Source: an uncultured Actinomycetes bacterium (GTDB lineage: Bacteria > Chloroflexota > Dormibacteria > Dormibacterales > Dormibacteraceae). Taken from it: DNA of 64,000 bases. This document shows positions 28,180 to 35,276 of this stretch, piece after piece. The notes beneath the pieces are model-generated. The model made no database searches. It saw only the letters and a list, made by a program, of their open reading frames with translations, and was not told where the DNA came from. The translations under genes were made by a program, and so were the position numbers. Location of the stretch: assembly GCA_964559855.1 (NCBI GenBank), contig CAZLJC010000002.1, positions 3,900-67,899 of the forward strand, read 5' to 3'. The number at the start of each line of letters is the position of its first letter. Positions within the stretch are counted from its first letter, which is position 1.

Positions 28180-28501
28180 GCGCGAATTCCGCGCCTTTTG
28201 GGCCAAACGAGCCAAATCCCGCGCGAATTGCACGCCTTCTGCGCCAAACGAGCCAATCTGGCTCGGATAGCGCGCAACTCGAAAATTGCACGCCTTTTGC
28301 GCCAGGCGAGCGTGATGCCGTGCGAATCGCGCGCAACTCGAAATTGCACGCCTTTTGCGCCAAACGAGCCAATCTGGCTCGGATAGCGCGCAACTCGAAA
28401 ATTGCACGCCTTTTGCGCCAAACGAGCCAAATCCCGCGCGAATTGCACGCCTTCTGCGCCAAACGAGCCAATCCCCTGCGGACCTTGTGAGCCGTTCAGC
28501 C
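28180..28501 (+). repeat. Repeat locus B: six units of the 41-58 bp repeat family plus a terminal module (…CCTGCGGACCTTGTGAGCCGTTCAGCC)
   Basis: Core TT(C/T)TG(C/G)GCCAAACGAGCCAA at ~28196, 28236, 28294 (degenerate), 28352, 28410 and 28450. Units 2 and 4 carry the hairpin CGAGCCA-atc-TGGCTCG. Confidence 0.9.
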
Positions 28502-28865: not shown

Positions 28866-29706
28866 TTATCTGCCGCGCCGCTGCACGAACTGGAACCCGA
28901 ATCGCCCCTTGATGCACAGGTGGCCGGACGTCACGCTGTGGTCGAGGGGCGACGTCACCTTCACGATCGTGTTGTCCTGCACGTGCAGCTCGAGCATGCA
29001 GCCCACGCCGCAGTAGGGGCACACCGTCTCGGTCACCGTCTGCGCCGGCCCGTCCCACGTGCCGGCGGCTCGCATATCGTGCTCGCTCTTGAACATCAGG
29101 GCGCCGGTCGGGCAGACGCCGATGCAGTTGCCACAGTAGACGCACGCGGAATCCGGCAGCCCCACGTCGAACTCGGTGGAGATGTGGGCGTCGAAGCCCC
29201 GTCCCGCGACCCCGATCGCGAACGTGTTCTGCGCCTCCGCGCCACACGCCTCGACGCACTTGTAGCAGAGGATGCAGCGCGAGTAGTCGCGCACGTACAG
29301 GTCGTTGTCGACCTTCGCCGGCTGCGCGACGGTGGCCACGGACCCGAAGCGCGCCGGCTGCGCTCCATACTCCCGCATCCACCCATGCACCTGGGGCGAC
29401 GCCAGCGACACGTCGACGGACGACCCCACAAGCTCGAGCACCAGGCGCCGGCTGTGCTTCACGCGCTCGGAGCCGGTGCGGACCTTCATGCCCGCCTCGA
29501 CCTGGCGCGAGCACGCGGGCACCAGCGCGCGCGATCCCTCGAGCTCCACGACGCACGCGCGGCATACGTTGACCGGCGCGAGGTTGTCGAGCTGGCACAG
29601 CGTCGGCGTGTCGATCGCCAGGCGCCGGCACGCGTCCAGGATGGTGGAACCCTCCACCACCTCGACCTCGCGGCCGTCGACGGTGATGGCCACCATCCGC
29701 TTCGCC

Positions 29707-29714
<8 letters not shown>
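28866..29714 (-). CDS. formate dehydrogenase Fe-S subunit, equivalent to the N-terminal part of an FdsA/FdhF-type alpha subunit (2Fe-2S, 2x[4Fe-4S] ferredoxin, Mo-enzyme Fe4S4 domain); ends just before the molybdopterin domain
   Basis: …LCQLDNLAPVNVCRACVVE…PAC…; CILCYKCVEAC…CVYCGNCIGVCP; CPYCGVGC…GHLCIKGRFGFQFVQRRGR-stop. Confidence 0.85.
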
Positions 29715-31346
<1,632 letters not shown>

Positions 31347-31347
<1 letters not shown>

Positions 31348-33254
31348 CAGCCGCCCGACGCGACCGGGATCTTCTCGATCCGGATCGCGGTCGCCTTGAA
31401 CTCCGCGGTGCCGGACTTCGGGTCCCACGCGTCGACGGTGAGGATGTTGGTCGAGGCCTGGTCGGGGAAGTGCAGCGTCATGAACGCGAGCCCGGGGCGC
31501 AGCGAGGGCTCGACGCCGATTGCGACCTCGATCGCTCCGCGCCGGGAGCTGGCGCGCACGGATTCGCCTTCGGCGACGCCCAGCGCGGCCGCGTCCTCCG
31601 GCGAGATGAGCAGCGCCTCGCCGCGGCGCAGCGGCGAGGTGTACTCGCCCGTCTGCACGCCGGTGTTGAACGAGTCGAGCCTCCGGCCGGTGGTGAGCCG
31701 GATGGGAAACTCGTCGCTCAGCGCATCGACCGGAGGGTCGTGGTCGACGGCGTGGAACGGCGCGCGAGGCCCCTCGACGGGCTCCTGCCACAGCCGCGCA
31801 TGGAGAAACTGCGTACCCGGGTGGGAGGTGTCTGGGCACGGCCACTGGATGCCGCCGAGCTCGTCCAGCCGCGCGTACGACATCCCGGCGTGCATCGGCG
31901 ACAGCGCGCGCAGCTCGTCCCACACCTGCTCGGCGGTGGGCTCGCCCCATTCGCAGCCGAGACGCCTGGCCAGCTCGCAGATGATCGCGATATCGTCGCG
32001 CGCACCATCCGGTGGATCGAGCGCCCGGCGCACGCGCTGCACGCGGCGCTCGCTGTTCGTCACCGTGCCCTCCGACTCCGCCCAGCCCGCGGCCGCCGGC
32101 AGCACCACGTGCGCAAGCTCGGCGGTCTGCGTCAGCAGGATCTCCTGGACCACGAGGTGCTCGAGCCCTCCGAGCAGGCGCACCGCGCGCGCCTGGTCGG
32201 CCTCGCTTCGCGCGGGGTTCTCCCCGATCACGTAGGCGGCGGTGAGACGCCCGTGCTCCATCGCCTCGAACATCTCGCTCAGGTGAAGGCCCTTCTCGGC
32301 CGGAAAGTGCGCGCCGCCCCACGCGCGCTCGAACTTCGCGTGCACCTCGGGGTCCTCGAGGTCCTGGAACCCGGGCAGCCGCGCCGGGATCGCCCCCATG
32401 TCACCGCCGCCCTGCACGTTGTTCTGGCCGCGCAGCGGGTTCAGCCCGCAGCCGTAGCGCCCGACCTTGCCCGTGAGCAATCCCAAGTTGATCAGCGCGA
32501 CCACGTTGTCGGTGGCGTTGTGGTGCTCGGTGATGCCGAGCGTCCAGCAGATCATCCCGGTGCGGGCCCGAGCGTAGTCGAGCGCCACCTCCTCGATCGC
32601 CGCGGCGGGAACTCCCGTCGCCTGCTCGGCGAACTCCAGCGTGTAGGACTCGACCTTGCGCGCGAAGGCGTCGTAGCCGGAGGTCGAGTTGGCGACGAAG
32701 CGCTGGTCGGCCAGGCCGGCGTGGATGATCACACGCGCCATCGCGTTGGCCAGGGCGATATCGCTGCCGACGTCGATGCCCAGCCACATATCGGCCCACT
32801 GCGCCGAGGTCGTCCGGCGGGGGTCGACGGCGTAGAGCCGCGCTCCGTTGCGCACCCCGCGGAGCAGGTGATGGAAGAAGATCGGATGGGTCTCGCGCGC
32901 GTTGGAGCCCCACAGGATGATCACCTCGGTGTCCTCGACCTCGCGATAGGACGACGTCCCGCCCCCCGCCCCGAACACCGTCGCCAGACCGGCGACGCTG
33001 GGGGCGTGTCAAGTCCGGTTGCAGCTGTCGACGTTGTTGCTCTGCATCACGGCGCGCGCGAACTTCTGCGCCATGTAGTTCATCTCGTTGGTCTGCTTGG
33101 AGCAGCTGAACAGGCCGAAGGCCTCAGGCCCGCGCGCTCGCGCGGCCTCGAAGCCGGCCGCCGCGCGTCGCAGCGCCTCCTCCCAGGTCGCGGGGCGAAG
33201 GCGGCCGCCCTCTCTGACCAGCGGCTCGGTCAGACGGCGCAGGCCGTCACCCAT
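31347..33254 (-). CDS. fdhA: formate dehydrogenase catalytic (molybdopterin) subunit with in-frame UGA read as selenocysteine; lacks its own N-terminal Fe-S domains
   Basis: ORFs 33009..33254 and 31347..32978 are in the same frame (1908 nt = 636 codons), separated only by TGA 33009-33011. The context is …NNVDSCNRT-U-HAPSVAGLATVFGAGGG…, matching the Sec/Cys-His active site. …LRGQNNVQGG… lies downstream. Confidence 0.85.
32979..32997 (-). promoter_or_regulatory. putative bacterial SECIS hairpin (CGUCGCC-GGUCU-GGCGACG) downstream of the in-frame UGA
   Basis: A perfect 7-bp stem starts 12 nt after the UGA. The loop GGU starts at nt 22 counted from the U of UGA, the same spacing and GGUC loop as I recall for the E. 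coli fdhF SECIS. Confidence 0.7.
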
Positions 33255-33280: not shown

Positions 33281-34468
33281 CTACGGGCGGTGGGCGGTGA
33301 CGAACTCCTTGATCCGGTCGAGGCCCAGCTTCAGCTCGCTCTCGGACTGCGTGTAGGCGAGCCGGATGAAGCCCTTCCCGGCCTCGCCGAACGAGGTCCC
33401 CGGAAGCACGGCCACGCCCGCCTCGGTGAGCAGGCGGGCGGCCAGGTCACGCTCGTCGAACCCGGTGCCCTCGACGTTCGGAAAGGCGTAGAACGCGCCC
33501 TGCGGCCGCGCGCAGCGGACGCCGGGGATCTCGTTCAGGCCGTCGACCACGAGGTTGCGCCGGTGCTCGAACACCTTGACCATGCGCTGGACGGCGTGCT
33601 CCGACTCGGGCGAGGTCAGCGCCTCGATGGCCGCGATCTGCGTGAAGCCCGCGGCGCAAGACGAGGAGTTGATCATCAGCTGGTCGAGCTTGGCCGCCAG
33701 CGCCCGCGGCGCGACCGCGTATCCCAGGCGCCAGCCGGTCATCGCATAGGACTTCGACAGCCCGTCCATCAGCACGGTCCGCTCGCGCATCCCGGGCCGC
33801 GACAGCGGCGAGACGTGGTGGAAGCCGTACACGAGCTGACTGTAGATCTCGTCCGAGACCACGATCAGGTCGTGCTTCTGCGCGAGCTCGCACACGAAGT
33901 CCACGTCCTCCTCGGTCAGCACGCCTCCCGTCGGGTTCTGCGGCGTGTTGATGATCAGCATCCGCGTCTTCGGCGTGACGAGCGAGGCGAGCTCGTCGAG
34001 GTCCATGCGGAAGTCCTTGTCCTCGCGCAGCGTGACCAGCTTCGGGATCGCGCCTATGAAGTTGACCTGCGAGTGGTACGCGGGATAGCCCGGGTCGGGA
34101 AGGATCACCTCGTCGCCCGGCTCGATGCACGCCAGCAGCGTGAAGAGCAGGACGTTCTTCGACCCGGGGACCAGGACCACGTCGTCGGCCTCGACGTCCG
34201 TGTTCAGCATGCGGCTGACGAACCCCGCCACCGCCTCGCGCGACTCGCGGATCCCGCTCGCGGGCGTGTAGTGCGTGTAGCCGTTCTGCAGAGCGCCGAT
34301 GCCCGCCTCGACGATGTTGTCCGGCGTCGCGAAATCGGGTTCGCCGATCTCGAGGTGAACGATCTTCTTGCCCTCGGCCTCGAGGCGCCGCGCGCGGGCC
34401 AGCACCTCGAAGGCGCCCTCGGTCCCCAGCCGCGACATGCGCTCGGCGAAACGGATCGCTGTGCTCAT
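33281..34468 (-). CDS. class I/II pyridoxal-phosphate-dependent aminotransferase (aspartate aminotransferase-like)
   Basis: …EIGEPDF…NTPQNPTG…DEIY…LSKSYAMTGWRLGY…; 395 aa. Confidence 0.88.
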   Translation of the reverse strand: MSTAIRFAERMSRLGTEGAFEVLARARRLEAEGKKIVHLEIGEPDFATPDNIVEAGIGALQNGYTHYTPASGIRESREAVAGFVSRMLNTDVEADDVVLVPGSKNVLLFTLLACIEPGDEVILPDPGYPAYHSQVNFIGAIPKLVTLREDKDFRMDLDELASLVTPKTRMLIINTPQNPTGGVLTEEDVDFVCELAQKHDLIVVSDEIYSQLVYGFHHVSPLSRPGMRERTVLMDGLSKSYAMTGWRLGYAVAPRALAAKLDQLMINSSSCAAGFTQIAAIEALTSPESEHAVQRMVKVFEHRRNLVVDGLNEIPGVRCARPQGAFYAFPNVEGTGFDERDLAARLLTEAGVAVLPGTSFGEAGKGFIRLAYTQSESELKLGLDRIKEFVTAHRP

Positions 34469-34481
34469 CTCAGTCGAAATC

Positions 34482-35246
34482 CTAGTGGACGCCGGCCAGT
34501 GAGCCGCCGTCGACTCCCAGCGTCTGTCCCGTGATGTAGCCCGCCTGCCGAGAACATAGAAAAACGCACGCCGCCGCGAACTCGGCCGGCTCGCCGAACC
34601 TCTTCATCGGCGCCTGCGCCGCGCGCCGCTTCAGGTTCTCCTCCAGGTCGCCGCCGGCGCCGCCCACGAGGTGGCGAATGCGGTCGGTGAGGATGGCGTC
34701 CGGAGCGACGCAGTTGAACGTGATGCGATCCGCGGCCAGCTCGAGCGCGAGCGTCTTCGCCAGCCCCGTGACGGCGCCGCGCAGGGCGTTCGACAGAGCC
34801 AGGTTGGGCAGCGGCTGCCGGACCGACACCGAGGTGATGAACACGACGCGGCCCTGCTCGGAGCGCTTGAGCAGCGGGAGCGCCTCGTGAACGATCCGCA
34901 CGGCGCTCATCACGGTCAGCTCGAACGCCGGCTCCCAGCTCTCGAGCGGAACCTGCTGAAACGTGCCCGCCGGAGGGCCGCCCGCGTTCACGATCAGCAC
35001 GTCGAGCCCGCCGAGCTGGTCGCCCGTGCGACTGACGAGCGCTTCTACGTCGGCGGCCTTGGCCATATCGGCGACGAACCCTCGCGCCGCGCCGATGTCT
35101 CGCGCCGTCGCCTCGATCGCCGCCTGGTCGCGCGACGAGATGACGACGTGCGCCCCCTCCGCCACCAGCGCCTCGGCGCATGCGCGGCCCAGCCCCCGGC
35201 TCGCCGCGGTCACGAGCGCGCGGCGATCCTTCAGGCCGAGGTCCAC
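34482..35246 (-). CDS. SDR-family oxidoreductase
   Basis: …ALVTAASRGLGRA…NAGG…ITS…; 254 aa; GTG start. Confidence 0.85.
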   Translation of the reverse strand: MDLGLKDRRALVTAASRGLGRACAEALVAEGAHVVISSRDQAAIEATARDIGAARGFVADMAKAADVEALVSRTGDQLGGLDVLIVNAGGPPAGTFQQVPLESWEPAFELTVMSAVRIVHEALPLLKRSEQGRVVFITSVSVRQPLPNLALSNALRGAVTGLAKTLALELAADRITFNCVAPDAILTDRIRHLVGGAGGDLEENLKRRAAQAPMKRFGEPAEFAAACVFLCSRQAGYITGQTLGVDGGSLAGVH

Positions 35247-35276
35247 GCCCTCATTGTCCCCTCAACCCGAACCGAC

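What the first reader, a model, noticed from the sequence alone, without database searches (positions are those of the whole stretch)
32979..33011. In-frame TGA in the formate dehydrogenase catalytic gene looks like selenocysteine, with a SECIS-like hairpin
The ORF track breaks the molybdopterin subunit into 33009..33254 and 31347..32978. Both pieces are in one frame and only TGA (33009-33011) separates them. The read-through peptide is …NNVDSCNRT-[TGA]-HAPSVAGLATVFGAGGGTSSY…, so the TGA sits at the Sec/Cys-His active-site position of FdhF/FdsA-type enzymes. Twelve nt downstream lies a perfect hairpin, CGUCGCC-GGUCU-GGCGACG. Its GGU loop starts at nt 22 from the UGA, the same register and loop sequence as I recall for the E. 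coli fdhF SECIS. A naive annotation would call this a pseudogene or two genes.
Basis: partly seen in the sequence, partly recalled or inferred. Interest (0 to 1): 0.72.

Follow-up and report, generated by a model that had tools for sequence, protein, structure and literature searches.

The report
Selenocysteine codon in formate dehydrogenase gene
The in-frame TGA is almost certainly a selenocysteine codon with its mRNA hairpin, in the catalytic subunit of an NAD-linked formate dehydrogenase of a Dormibacterota-like soil bacterium; this is a correct but textbook kind of finding, and the only unusual feature is that the catalytic subunit is split into two genes in swapped order.

Summary
On the minus strand one frame runs from ATG 33254 to the stop at 31347 and is interrupted only by TGA 33011-33009.

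- The TGA aligns with Sec140 of E. coli FdhF, followed by His, and Arg333 is conserved.
- All 81 relatives fetched (68-84% protein identity, MAGs labelled as many phyla) carry TGA at this codon. None has a stop in the 70 codons before it or the 99 after it.
- Of 53 four-fold degenerate sites around the codon, only the five inside the hairpin (nt 18, 21, 24, 27, 30) are frozen.
- The 6-bp helix nt 16-21/27-32 pairs in every sequence, with C-G/U-G/U-A covariation at pair 20-28. It meets all four criteria of the published bacterial SECIS model.

TGA is otherwise the normal stop here (22 of 29 genes).

The window holds no selA, selB, selD or tRNA-Sec. Many Dormibacterota MAGs do encode them, and in one they sit beside this operon. 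The window's own genome could not be checked.

The enzyme is an Fds/FoDH1-type NAD-linked formate dehydrogenase. Its alpha subunit is split, with gene order Mo subunit, NuoE-NuoF fusion, Fe-S subunit. That order holds in all 67 loci long enough to show it in tandem; one more has a 1.4-kb insert.

The parts
31347..33254 (-). Catalytic (Mo/W-bisPGD) subunit gene of formate dehydrogenase, 635 codons including the Sec codon. It corresponds to FdsA residues about 308-931 and lacks the N-terminal Fe-S domains.
   Evidence: Translation. Pfam Molybdopterin (residues 7-430) and Molydop_binding (519-622). NCBIfam TIGR01591 Fdh-alpha positions 52-672, 640.7 bits. PDB matches to FdhF, FdsA and FoDH1 alpha. 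GC3 of 0.89-0.93 on both sides of the TGA.
33009..33011 (-). In-frame UGA read as selenocysteine (codon 82), in the motif DSCNRT-U-HAPSV.
   Evidence: Aligns with X140 (Sec140) of E. coli FdhF 1aa6, followed by His141 (counted). TGA in 82 of 82 sequences.
32980..32996 (-). Conserved SECIS core, GUCGCC-GGUCU-GGCGAC. The helix is nt 16-21/27-32 and the apical loop is nt 22-26 (window 32990-32986). In this window one further pair, C15-G33 (32997/32979), can form.
   Evidence: All six pairs are standard in all 81 distinct sequences; pair 20-28 is CG 45, UG 29, UA 7. The four-fold sites nt 18, 21, 24, 27, 30 have entropy 0-0.17 bits against 0.89-1.93 elsewhere. MFE is -9.5 kcal/mol for the 17-mer and -11.9 for the 19-mer. 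Sub-threshold Rfam SECIS_3 match over 33014-32956.
32967..33006 (-). Possible extended lower stem (nt 6-13 with nt 35-45) predicted for the single sequence. Not supported by comparison.
   Evidence: Present in the MFE fold and in the Rfam SECIS_3 alignment. Only 63% of cells pair across relatives and there is no clear covariation.
29707..31347 (-). NuoE-NuoF fusion (diaphorase) subunit, 546 aa. It carries the 2Fe-2S thioredoxin-like domain, the FMN/NADH site and the N3 4Fe-4S site. Its ATG overlaps the stop of the Mo gene (TGATG).
   Evidence: Junction and translation. Pfam 2Fe-2S_thioredx, Complex1_51K, SLBB and NADH_4Fe-4S. The best PDB match is the M. extorquens FoDH1 beta subunit, 7e5z_B, E = 3.7e-98.
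28866..29714 (-). Fe-S subunit, 282 aa. It equals the N-terminal third of FdsA/FoDH1 alpha: a 2Fe-2S domain, 4Fe-4S domains, and the Molybdop_Fe4S4 (FS0) domain with CxxCxxxC...C and the CIKGR lysine. Its ATG overlaps the NuoEF stop by 8 nt.
   Evidence: Pfam Fer2_4, Fer4_Nqo3 and Molybdop_Fe4S4 (residues 226-278). Residues 230-282 match TIGR01591 positions 1-53. Aligns to FdsA residues 25-307 and FoDH1 alpha residues 64-341.

Best explanation
The UGA at 33011-33009 is decoded as selenocysteine. This is the mechanism established for E. coli fdhF, inferred here rather than shown: the hairpin GUCGCC-GGUCU-GGCGAC forms in the mRNA 12 nt after the UGA, its GGU-containing loop is bound by SelB carrying GTP and Sec-tRNA(Sec), and SelB delivers Sec to the ribosome in competition with release factor 2.

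The product is a 635-residue Mo- or W-bisPGD subunit. Sec82 would ligate the metal, next to His83 and the conserved Arg.

This subunit most likely assembles with two products of translationally coupled downstream genes. The first is a NuoE-NuoF fusion that carries FMN and reduces NAD+. The second is a 282-residue Fe-S protein that supplies the 2Fe-2S and 4Fe-4S chain, including the FS0 cluster that normally sits at the N-terminus of the catalytic subunit.

The complex would be a cytoplasmic, NAD(H)-linked formate dehydrogenase of the Fds/FoDH1 type, with Sec instead of Cys and with the alpha subunit split into two genes.

Shown here: the sequence features, their alignment to the solved enzymes, and their conservation. 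Inferred: Sec insertion, complex assembly, NAD+ as acceptor, and which metal is used.
For: 1. Active-site position. The TGA aligns with Sec140-His141 of E. coli FdhF and with Cys in Cys-type enzymes. The NPLRGQNNVQG arginine is present (E. coli codon 140 verified).

2. Conservation of the codon. 82 of 82 sequences have TGA, never TAA, TAG or a sense codon, at 68-84% protein identity and in MAGs labelled Dormibacterota, Acidobacteriota, Actinomycetota, Chloroflexota and others.

3. Both sides are translated. No sequence has a stop in the 70 codons upstream or the 99 downstream. In close relatives third-position and synonymous changes dominate on both sides; for L001 the synonymous:non-synonymous counts are 19:9 upstream and 31:5 downstream.

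4. RNA-level constraint. Five consecutive four-fold degenerate sites, nt 18, 21, 24, 27 and 30, are invariant or nearly so. The other 48 four-fold sites from -150 to +240 vary freely.

5. Structure. The six helix pairs are always standard pairs. A28 occurs only with U20, in 7 of 7 cases, and U17 pairs with A or G.

6. Fit to the published bSECIS model. The 5-nt loop starts with GG followed by U, the stem is 6-7 bp, 18 nt separate the UGA from the loop, and the MFE is -9.5 to -11.9 kcal/mol. The loop GGUCU is in the same register as in E. coli fdhF. Rfam SECIS_3 gives a weak match.

7. TGA is otherwise the usual stop: 22 of 29 gene ends, including the ends of this gene and the next.

8. Sec machinery in the lineage.
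- SelB proteins that NCBI names as from Candidatus Dormibacteria or Dormibacteraeota are numerous.
- L082, from a MAG that NCBI names Candidatus Dormibacteria (protein P0132), has selA-selB-selD directly beside the same three-gene operon, and its Mo gene is recorded as one 651-aa product containing the TGA.
- tRNA-Sec lies next to selA in L084 and L097.
- selA, selB and selD are also next to the operon in L060 and L080, and selA and selB in L055.
Against: - No selA, selB, selD or tRNA-Sec lies within the 64-kb window. The window's own genome could not be searched. No MAG was found that demonstrably carries both a window-clade (77% identity or more) operon and SelB.
- Rfam reports nothing at its gathering thresholds. 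SECIS_3 reaches 26 of the 63 bits required.
- The hairpin lacks the bulged U of the E. coli fdhF element.
- There is no protein-level or 75Se evidence.
Confidence: 0.93

Rival explanations
1. The gene is a pseudogene inactivated by a nonsense mutation, as a naive annotation would suggest.
For: Gene callers split it into an 81-aa and a 543-aa ORF.
Against: The same TGA is present in 82 of 82 relatives labelled as many phyla. Reading frames are open on both sides, substitutions are mainly synonymous, GC3 is 0.89-0.93 on both sides, and the downstream genes are intact and translationally coupled. A chance nonsense mutation would not be shared or kept as TGA.
Confidence: 0.01
2. UGA is a true stop. 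The 81-residue N-terminal piece and a re-initiated 543-residue piece (GTG 32978) are made as two polypeptides that assemble without a Sec or Cys ligand.
For: A GTG start lies 31 nt after the TGA (first base at nt 34, counting the U of UGA as 1) and is what gene callers use. The enzyme is in any case built from split parts.
Against: This would delete the metal-ligating residue that is Sec or Cys in the solved formate dehydrogenases aligned here. It does not explain why the stop is always TGA. It does not explain the frozen synonymous sites and always-paired helix placed exactly where a SECIS must be. The residues between the TGA and the GTG (HAPSVAGLAT) are conserved and include the catalytic His.
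Confidence: 0.02
3. The UGA is read through, but in this particular organism not as Sec. For example, near-cognate Trp or Cys insertion could occur because the Sec machinery has been lost or selenium is unavailable.
For: The Sec genes were not found in the window, and the rest of the genome is unseen.
Against: The SECIS is intact and identical to that of relatives whose sel genes lie next to the operon. From general knowledge of selenoprotein evolution, lineages that lose the machinery replace TGA with TGC/TGT or lose the gene, and no such variant was seen among 82 sequences. SelA, SelB, SelD and tRNA-Sec are widespread in Dormibacterota MAGs.
Confidence: 0.03
4. The conserved nucleotides at nt 16-32 reflect something other than a SECIS, such as codon bias or a DNA-level motif, and the hairpin is incidental.
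For: The amino acids SVAGLA(T) are themselves conserved, and the region is G+C-rich, so hairpins are common. The fold z-score in context is only -0.57.
Against: Codon bias cannot freeze five consecutive four-fold sites while 48 others in the same gene vary. One of the frozen codons is GGU, ending in U at a site where the genome's third positions are about 93% G+C. Amino-acid changes in the helix (A to V, A to T, T to A) occur only in pair-preserving combinations. Position, loop sequence and register equal the E. coli fdhF element.
Confidence: 0.01

Closest known systems
E. coli formate dehydrogenase H (FdhF), Sec140, and its fdhF SECIS
   Same: The Mo-bisPGD catalytic domain is homologous (E = 1.5e-135, query residues 7-629). 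U-H lies at the aligned position and the Arg is conserved. The SECIS loop GGUCU sits at the same nt 22-26 after the UGA, encoded by the same V-A-G-L codons.
   Different: FdhF carries its own N-terminal 4Fe-4S domain and works with hydrogenase 3. Here that domain is on another polypeptide and the partners are NuoE/NuoF-like. The E. coli helix, as I recall it and as the SECIS_3 consensus suggests, has a bulged U17 and a 6-nt loop. Here U17 pairs with A31 or G31 in a continuous 6-bp helix with a 5-nt loop.
NAD+-dependent metal formate dehydrogenases: R. capsulatus/C. necator FdsABG(D) and M. extorquens FoDH1 (Fdh1AB)
   Same: The cofactor modules are the same. The Fe-S subunit matches FdsA residues 25-307 and FoDH1 alpha residues 64-341. 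The Mo subunit matches FdsA 308-931. The NuoE-NuoF fusion is most similar to FoDH1 beta.
   Different: The characterised enzymes have Cys at the active site and an unsplit alpha subunit of about 960-990 aa. Here the residue is Sec, and alpha is split exactly at the Fe4S4/Mo-domain boundary with gene order C-part, beta, N-part. No FdsD or FdsC/FdhD gene was seen among the window ORFs scanned.
Published bacterial SECIS consensus (bSECISearch model) and Rfam SECIS_3 (RF01989)
   Same: All four model criteria quoted in PMC13188914 are met. The SECIS_3 consensus shares UGACACG...GU.GCC.GUCUGGC.
   Different: The score is 26 bits against the SECIS_3 gathering score of 63. The lower stem of that model is not supported here.
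Sec-containing FdhF-type subunits with separate electron-transfer partners (A. woodii HDCR FdhF2; HylABC-FdhF2 of Gottschalkia acidurici, from my own knowledge)
   Same: A Sec-containing cytoplasmic catalytic subunit works with separately encoded Fe-S and flavin subunits. The best PDB match of the Mo subunit is the HDCR FdhF of T. kivui (7qv7_S).
   Different: Those catalytic subunits keep their own Fe4S4 domain. Their partners are hydrogenase or bifurcating modules, not a NuoG-N-terminal fragment that carries FS0.

Membership tests
Selenocysteine-containing formate dehydrogenase catalytic subunit (FdhA; TIGR01591 Fdh-alpha type) | In-frame UGA at the position of the metal-ligating Sec/Cys (Sec140 of E. 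coli FdhF) | tested here: met
   The phmmer alignment to 1aa6_A puts the codon opposite X140. Cys occupies this position in 7qv7_S and 7bkb_D. The E. coli gene has its TGA at codon 140.
Selenocysteine-containing formate dehydrogenase catalytic subunit (FdhA; TIGR01591 Fdh-alpha type) | U-H-x-P motif and the conserved active-site Arg (Arg333 in FdhF) | tested here: met
   The sequence is U-H-A-P. The motif UHxP is listed for FdhA in PMC13188914. NPLRGQNNVQG aligns with NPVRGQNNVQG of FdhF.
Selenocysteine-containing formate dehydrogenase catalytic subunit (FdhA; TIGR01591 Fdh-alpha type) | Molybdopterin and Molydop_binding domains | tested here: met
   PF00384, E = 1.4e-66, and PF01568, E = 2.1e-25.
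Selenocysteine-containing formate dehydrogenase catalytic subunit (FdhA; TIGR01591 Fdh-alpha type) | N-terminal Fe4S4 (FS0) domain on the same polypeptide, and the whole-protein score above the TIGR01591 cut-off | tested here: not met
   The Mo subunit matches model positions 52-672 only, at 640.7 bits against a cut-off of 666.25. Positions 1-53 are on the separate Fe-S subunit, residues 230-282, at 54.6 bits. All parts of the family are present, but spread over two genes.
Bacterial SECIS element (consensus model quoted in PMC13188914) | Apical loop of 3-9 nt on an upper stem of 4-16 bp | tested here: met
   The loop is GGUCU (5 nt). The stem is 6 bp conserved, 7 bp in the window.
Bacterial SECIS element (consensus model quoted in PMC13188914) | G in the first two loop positions, usually followed by G or U | tested here: met
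   The loop begins G22 G23 U24. G22 and G23 are invariant, and U24 is present in 79 of 81.
Bacterial SECIS element (consensus model quoted in PMC13188914) | 16-37 nt between the UGA and the apical loop | tested here: met
   nt 4-21 make 18 nt.
Bacterial SECIS element (consensus model quoted in PMC13188914) | MFE of -7.5 kcal/mol or lower | tested here: met
   -9.5 kcal/mol for the 17-mer, -11.9 for the 19-mer and -29.5 for 48 nt.
Bacterial SECIS element (consensus model quoted in PMC13188914) | Conservation of the structure beyond what coding requires | tested here: met
   Synonymous sites are frozen only within nt 16-32. The helix is 100% paired, with CG/UG/UA at pair 20-28.
Bacterial SECIS element (consensus model quoted in PMC13188914) | Binding by SelB and dependence of read-through on the hairpin | not testable with these tools
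   Needs a binding assay or a reporter assay.
Rfam SECIS_3 (RF01989) | Score at or above the gathering threshold of 63 bits | tested here: not met
   26 bits, E = 8e-4 in a 301-nt search. Nothing was reported at gathering thresholds.
Sec-decoding trait of the host genome | selA, selB, selD and tRNA-Sec (selC) in the same genome | not testable with these tools
   None is in the 64-kb window. The window's genome is not in the look-up index. The genes are present in other Dormibacterota MAGs, adjacent to the operon in L082, and near it in L055, L060 and L080.
NAD+-dependent Fds/FoDH1-type formate dehydrogenase | NuoE/NuoF-like FMN- and NAD-binding subunit encoded with the catalytic subunit | tested here: met
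   A 546-aa fusion with 2Fe-2S_thioredx, Complex1_51K and NADH_4Fe-4S domains. The best PDB match is FoDH1 beta. It is translationally coupled.
NAD+-dependent Fds/FoDH1-type formate dehydrogenase | Single alpha subunit of about 960-990 aa with a Cys ligand | tested here: not met
   Alpha is split into a 282-aa and a 635-aa product in swapped order, and the ligand codon is UGA.
NAD+-dependent Fds/FoDH1-type formate dehydrogenase | Formate:NAD+ oxidoreductase activity | not testable with these tools
   Needs an enzyme assay.

The most novel reading that the evidence does not exclude
The operon may represent an undescribed, widely distributed subfamily of NAD-linked metal formate dehydrogenases found in MAGs largely from soil and labelled Dormibacterota, Acidobacteriota, Actinomycetota, Chloroflexota and others. 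It has three distinguishing features. The FdsA-type alpha subunit is permanently split at the FS0/Mo-domain boundary. The gene order is permuted to Mo part, NuoEF fusion, Fe-S part. The active site is always Sec, whereas all characterised members of the NAD-dependent class use Cys. A nearly invariant 17-nt SECIS is shared across the differently labelled MAGs, presumably because the operon spreads horizontally into hosts with divergent SelB proteins.
Probability: 0.4. Interest if true: 0.45.

Novelty: new member of a known kind. Interest (0 to 1): 0.3.

Why it matters
Annotation is the practical consequence. In the protein database searched here, well over a hundred clusters of this gene are stored as a truncated 543-aa protein plus an 81-aa fragment. 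Read correctly, it is one selenoprotein.

It also shows that an uncultured Dormibacterota-like soil bacterium depends on selenium for formate metabolism. I found no paper in the held library that mentions both Dormibacter* and selenocysteine.

For enzymology, the characterised NAD+-dependent metal formate dehydrogenases, which are of interest for CO2 reduction, are all Cys enzymes. A natural Sec version with a modular, split alpha subunit could be a useful comparison.

None of this changes what is known about how Sec is decoded.

Tried and rejected
1. Extended lower stem of the SECIS (nt 4-13 with nt 39-47). It is predicted by the MFE fold and implied by the Rfam SECIS_3 alignment. Only 63% of cells pair and covariation is not convincing, so it is not claimed.

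2. It forms in the window but is unpaired in 46 of 81 relatives.

3. Rfam at gathering thresholds found nothing. Only a sub-threshold SECIS_3 match appeared.

4. sel genes in the window. Pfam scans of about 50 ORFs, plus ARAGORN, found none. The ORF set came from a GC3 filter and is not exhaustive. I also scanned the wrong frame for the gene at about 34482-35246, which is an SDR in L001.

5. Proving that one genome holds both the window-clade operon and SelB.
- The window's own protein is not in the contig index.
- Nine SelB look-ups gave MAGs with WGS prefixes JBTRVT, JBOHUM, DAHZFJ, DAHZFI, JAKCBC, DATLRN, VBEW, VBHG, DASYVR, DASWBA and DASYKI.
- None of these equals a MAG in the FDH list.
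- L082 does hold both, but its operon is only 69% identical to the window's.

6. Code reassignment of UGA. Rejected, because TGA ends 22 of 29 genes, including this one.

7. Fold energy as evidence. It is not significant in context, so I did not rely on it.

8. Query provenance. Their hits were therefore re-verified with NCBIfam and by the precomputed Pfam labels.
Full report
**1. The observation**

Reading the minus strand and translating 33254-31347 gives one frame of 636 codons. Its only internal stop is TGA at 33011-33009, within ...NNVDSCNRT-*-HAPSVAGLATVFGAGGGTSSY.... The mechanical ORF list breaks this into 33009..33254 and 31347..32978. Third-position G+C is 0.89 and 0.93 on the two sides, so both pieces look coding.

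Counting the U of UGA as nt 1, the hairpin CGUCGCC-GGUCU-GGCGACG occupies nt 15-33 (window 32997-32979). The loop GGU is nt 22-24. Its TGA is codon 140, and the downstream sequence CACGGCCCATCGGTTGCAGGTCTG puts GGUCUG at the same nt 22-27.

On energy alone the hairpin is not remarkable in this 71% G+C DNA. In its 71-nt context, 49 of 200 shuffles fold as well. The isolated 19-mer is better than all 200 shuffles.

**2. What the gene is**

The read-through product has Pfam Molybdopterin and Molydop_binding domains. It matches NCBIfam TIGR01591 (formate dehydrogenase alpha) over model positions 52-672.

Against solved structures the best matches are:
- FdhF of the T. kivui HDCR complex
- the methanogen formate dehydrogenase 7bkb_D
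- E. coli FdhF
- the alpha subunits of M. extorquens FoDH1 and R. capsulatus FdsA, where query residues 7-626 align to FdsA 308-931

In the alignment to E. coli FdhF the TGA lies opposite X140, which is Sec140, followed by His141. The Arg333 motif NP(V/L)RGQNNVQG is conserved. Cys occupies the position in the Cys-type enzymes.

**3. Surroundings: a split alpha subunit**

The protein lacks the N-terminal Fe-S domains that FdhF and FdsA have. They are encoded two genes downstream.

- Immediately after the Mo gene comes a 546-aa NuoE-NuoF fusion at 31347-29707. Its ATG overlaps the Mo gene's stop as TGATG. Its best structural relative is FoDH1 beta.
- Overlapping that gene's stop by 8 nt is a 282-aa protein at 29714-28866, with Fer2_4, Fer4_Nqo3 and Molybdop_Fe4S4 domains. 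It aligns to FdsA residues 25-307 and FoDH1 alpha residues 64-341. Its last 53 residues match TIGR01591 positions 1-53.

So an FdsA-type alpha subunit is cut exactly at the FS0/Mo-domain boundary and its halves are encoded in swapped order. The order Mo, NuoEF, Fe-S holds in 67 of 67 related loci long enough to show it in tandem. One further locus, L080, has a 1.4-kb insertion. This is a stable gene arrangement, not a rearrangement accident in this genome.

**4. Relatives**

The 120 best protein-database hits (80-100% identity) are all 537-544 aa. Gene callers everywhere start just after the TGA.

A scan of one genome per species returned 80 loci. The closest (77-83% identity) are mostly labelled Candidatus Dormibacterota. 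Those at about 70% are labelled Acidobacteriota, Actinomycetota, Chloroflexota, Gemmatimonadota and others. Several labels, such as Micrarchaeaceae and Nitrosopolaris, are evidently mis-binned contigs.

Including L001 and the window, 82 of 82 sequences have TGA at this codon within DSCNRT-U-HAPSV[AV]GL. None has a stop in the 70 codons before it or the 99 after it. In close relatives, changes are mostly synonymous and third-position on both sides. That excludes a pseudogene, and it argues against simple termination, under which TAA or TAG would also be expected.

**5. The hairpin is under selection as RNA**

In the ungapped nucleotide alignment, the 53 four-fold degenerate sites between -150 and +240 have third-position entropies of 0.89-1.93 bits. 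The exceptions are five consecutive sites, nt 18, 21, 24, 27 and 30, at 0, 0, 0.17, 0 and 0 bits. These are exactly the wobble positions inside nt 16-32. One of them keeps GGU, which ends in U in a genome whose third positions are about 93% G+C.

Counting pairs gives, for the six pairs nt 16-21 with nt 27-32, standard pairs in every one of 81 distinct sequences:
- Pair 20-28 is C-G in 45, U-G in 29 and U-A in 7. A28 never occurs with C20.
- Pair 17-31 is U-A in 63 and U-G in 18.

These changes alter amino acids (Ala/Val, Ala/Thr, Thr/Ala) yet always preserve pairing.

The conserved unit is therefore a 17-nt stem-loop, GUCGYC-GGUCU-GRCGRC.

**6. Comparison with the SECIS definition**

The consensus model quoted in PMC13188914 sets four criteria, all met here:

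| Criterion | Required | Found here |
|---|---|---|
| Apical loop | 3-9 nt | 5 nt |
| Upper stem | 4-16 bp | 6-7 bp |
| UGA to loop | 16-37 nt | 18 nt |
| MFE | -7.5 kcal/mol or lower | -9.5 to -11.9 |

Rfam gives only a sub-threshold match to SECIS_3 (26 bits against 63; E = 8e-4 for a 301-nt search). Its consensus shares the UGACACG...GUCUGGC pattern.

One difference from E. coli fdhF and from that model: the U that is bulged there (U17) is paired here.

**7. Is UGA otherwise a stop, and is the machinery there?**

TGA ends 22 of 29 genes in the window, including the Mo and NuoEF genes themselves. The code is standard.

The window has no tRNA gene. No SelA, SelB or SelD domain appeared among the ORFs scanned. 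The window's own genome could not be reached.

The indirect evidence is good:
- tblastn of the fetched loci, with hits confirmed by NCBIfam, found selA, selB and selD, and in L080 also tRNA-Sec, within 10 kb of the same operon in L060 and L080. It found selA and selB, together with FdhD and MoeA, in L055.
- Searching with the L060 SelB, and then with a Dormibacterota SelB, returned many SelB proteins that NCBI names as Candidatus Dormibacteria or Dormibacteraeota.
- L082, from a MAG that NCBI names Candidatus Dormibacteria, has selA-selB-selD directly next to Fe-S, NuoEF and Mo genes. The Mo gene is on record as one 651-aa product and contains DSCNRT-TGA-HAPSVAGL. It is 69% identical to the window's protein.
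- tRNA-Sec precedes selA in L084 and L097.
- A conserved selA-selB locus occurs in MAGs of the same sequencing projects as several window-clade loci.

I could not show both features in one MAG of the window's own clade. This is the main gap.

**8. Mechanism and rivals**

The best explanation (about 0.93) is standard bacterial Sec insertion. SelB with Sec-tRNA(Sec) binds the nt 16-32 hairpin and decodes UGA-82. The resulting 635-residue Sec-His-Arg catalytic subunit joins the NuoEF and Fe-S subunits to form a cytoplasmic, NAD-linked formate dehydrogenase.

The rivals each fail to explain the invariant TGA together with the frozen, pair-preserving helix. They are a pseudogene, termination plus re-initiation, non-Sec read-through in an organism that lost the machinery, and a hairpin that is incidental.

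**9. Novelty**

Sec in formate dehydrogenase, with a SECIS just downstream, is the founding example of bacterial selenoproteins. [quoted passage not shown] At least one orthologue is already on record as a single read-through product. The finding is therefore a new member of a known kind.

Two things are modestly new:
- The host lineage. No paper in the held library mentions both Dormibacter* and selenocysteine.
- The architecture. The characterised NAD+-dependent metal enzymes are Cys enzymes with an unsplit alpha subunit, whereas this conserved family is Sec-containing, split and permuted.

I did not find a description of that arrangement in two literature searches. That is weak evidence of absence.

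Noticed in passing
window 28866-33254 (minus strand): The FdsA-type alpha subunit is split exactly at the Fe4S4/Mo-domain boundary and encoded in swapped order: Mo part, NuoE-NuoF fusion, Fe-S part, with overlapping stop and start codons. The order is conserved in 67 of 67 informative related loci in MAGs labelled as many phyla.
   Followed up: yes
window 28185-28475: An intergenic tandem array with a period of about 58 nt (116-nt double unit), about 4-5 copies and 79-90% matches. G+C is about 59% against 71% for the window. It lies between the HhH-GPD gene and the end of the FDH operon. Its function is unknown.
   Followed up: partly
L085-L098 (e.g. L097 7024-9920; L085 7818-9902): In several Dormibacterota MAGs the selA-selB-selD cluster sits beside a different molybdoenzyme operon: NrfD-like membrane protein, 4Fe-4S protein, and a Mo subunit of 825-1047 aa. 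This is probably a second, membrane-bound FDH-N-type selenoprotein. Its UGA and SECIS were not examined.
   Followed up: no
L082 8640-18649: In a MAG that NCBI names Candidatus Dormibacteria, selA-selB-selD lie directly next to the same three-gene FDH operon on the opposite strand. The Mo gene is recorded as a single 651-aa product spanning the TGA.
   Followed up: yes
L012, L013, L015, L021, L028 and L060 (table): Contigs carrying a Dormibacterota-type FDH operon (72-81% identical) are in bins labelled Acidoferrum, Eisenbacteria, Verrucomicrobiia, Micrarchaeaceae archaeon and Nitrosopolaris. This is most likely mis-binning or mislabelling in those MAG sets.
   Followed up: no
L080 11899-13292: In this Chloroflexia MAG about 1.4 kb is inserted between the Mo gene and the NuoEF gene. 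It is the only exception to the tight three-gene arrangement. The content was not examined.
   Followed up: no
L055 3040-5355: FdhD (sulfurtransferase) and MoeA genes lie between selB and the FDH operon in this relative. No FdhD was seen among the ORFs scanned in the window.
   Followed up: partly
window 34465-35261 (minus strand): Two overlapping ORFs in different frames. The one I scanned (34465-35181) had no Pfam hit. The GC3 profile and synteny with L001 (a 254-aa short-chain dehydrogenase) indicate that the real gene is 34482-35246.
   Followed up: no
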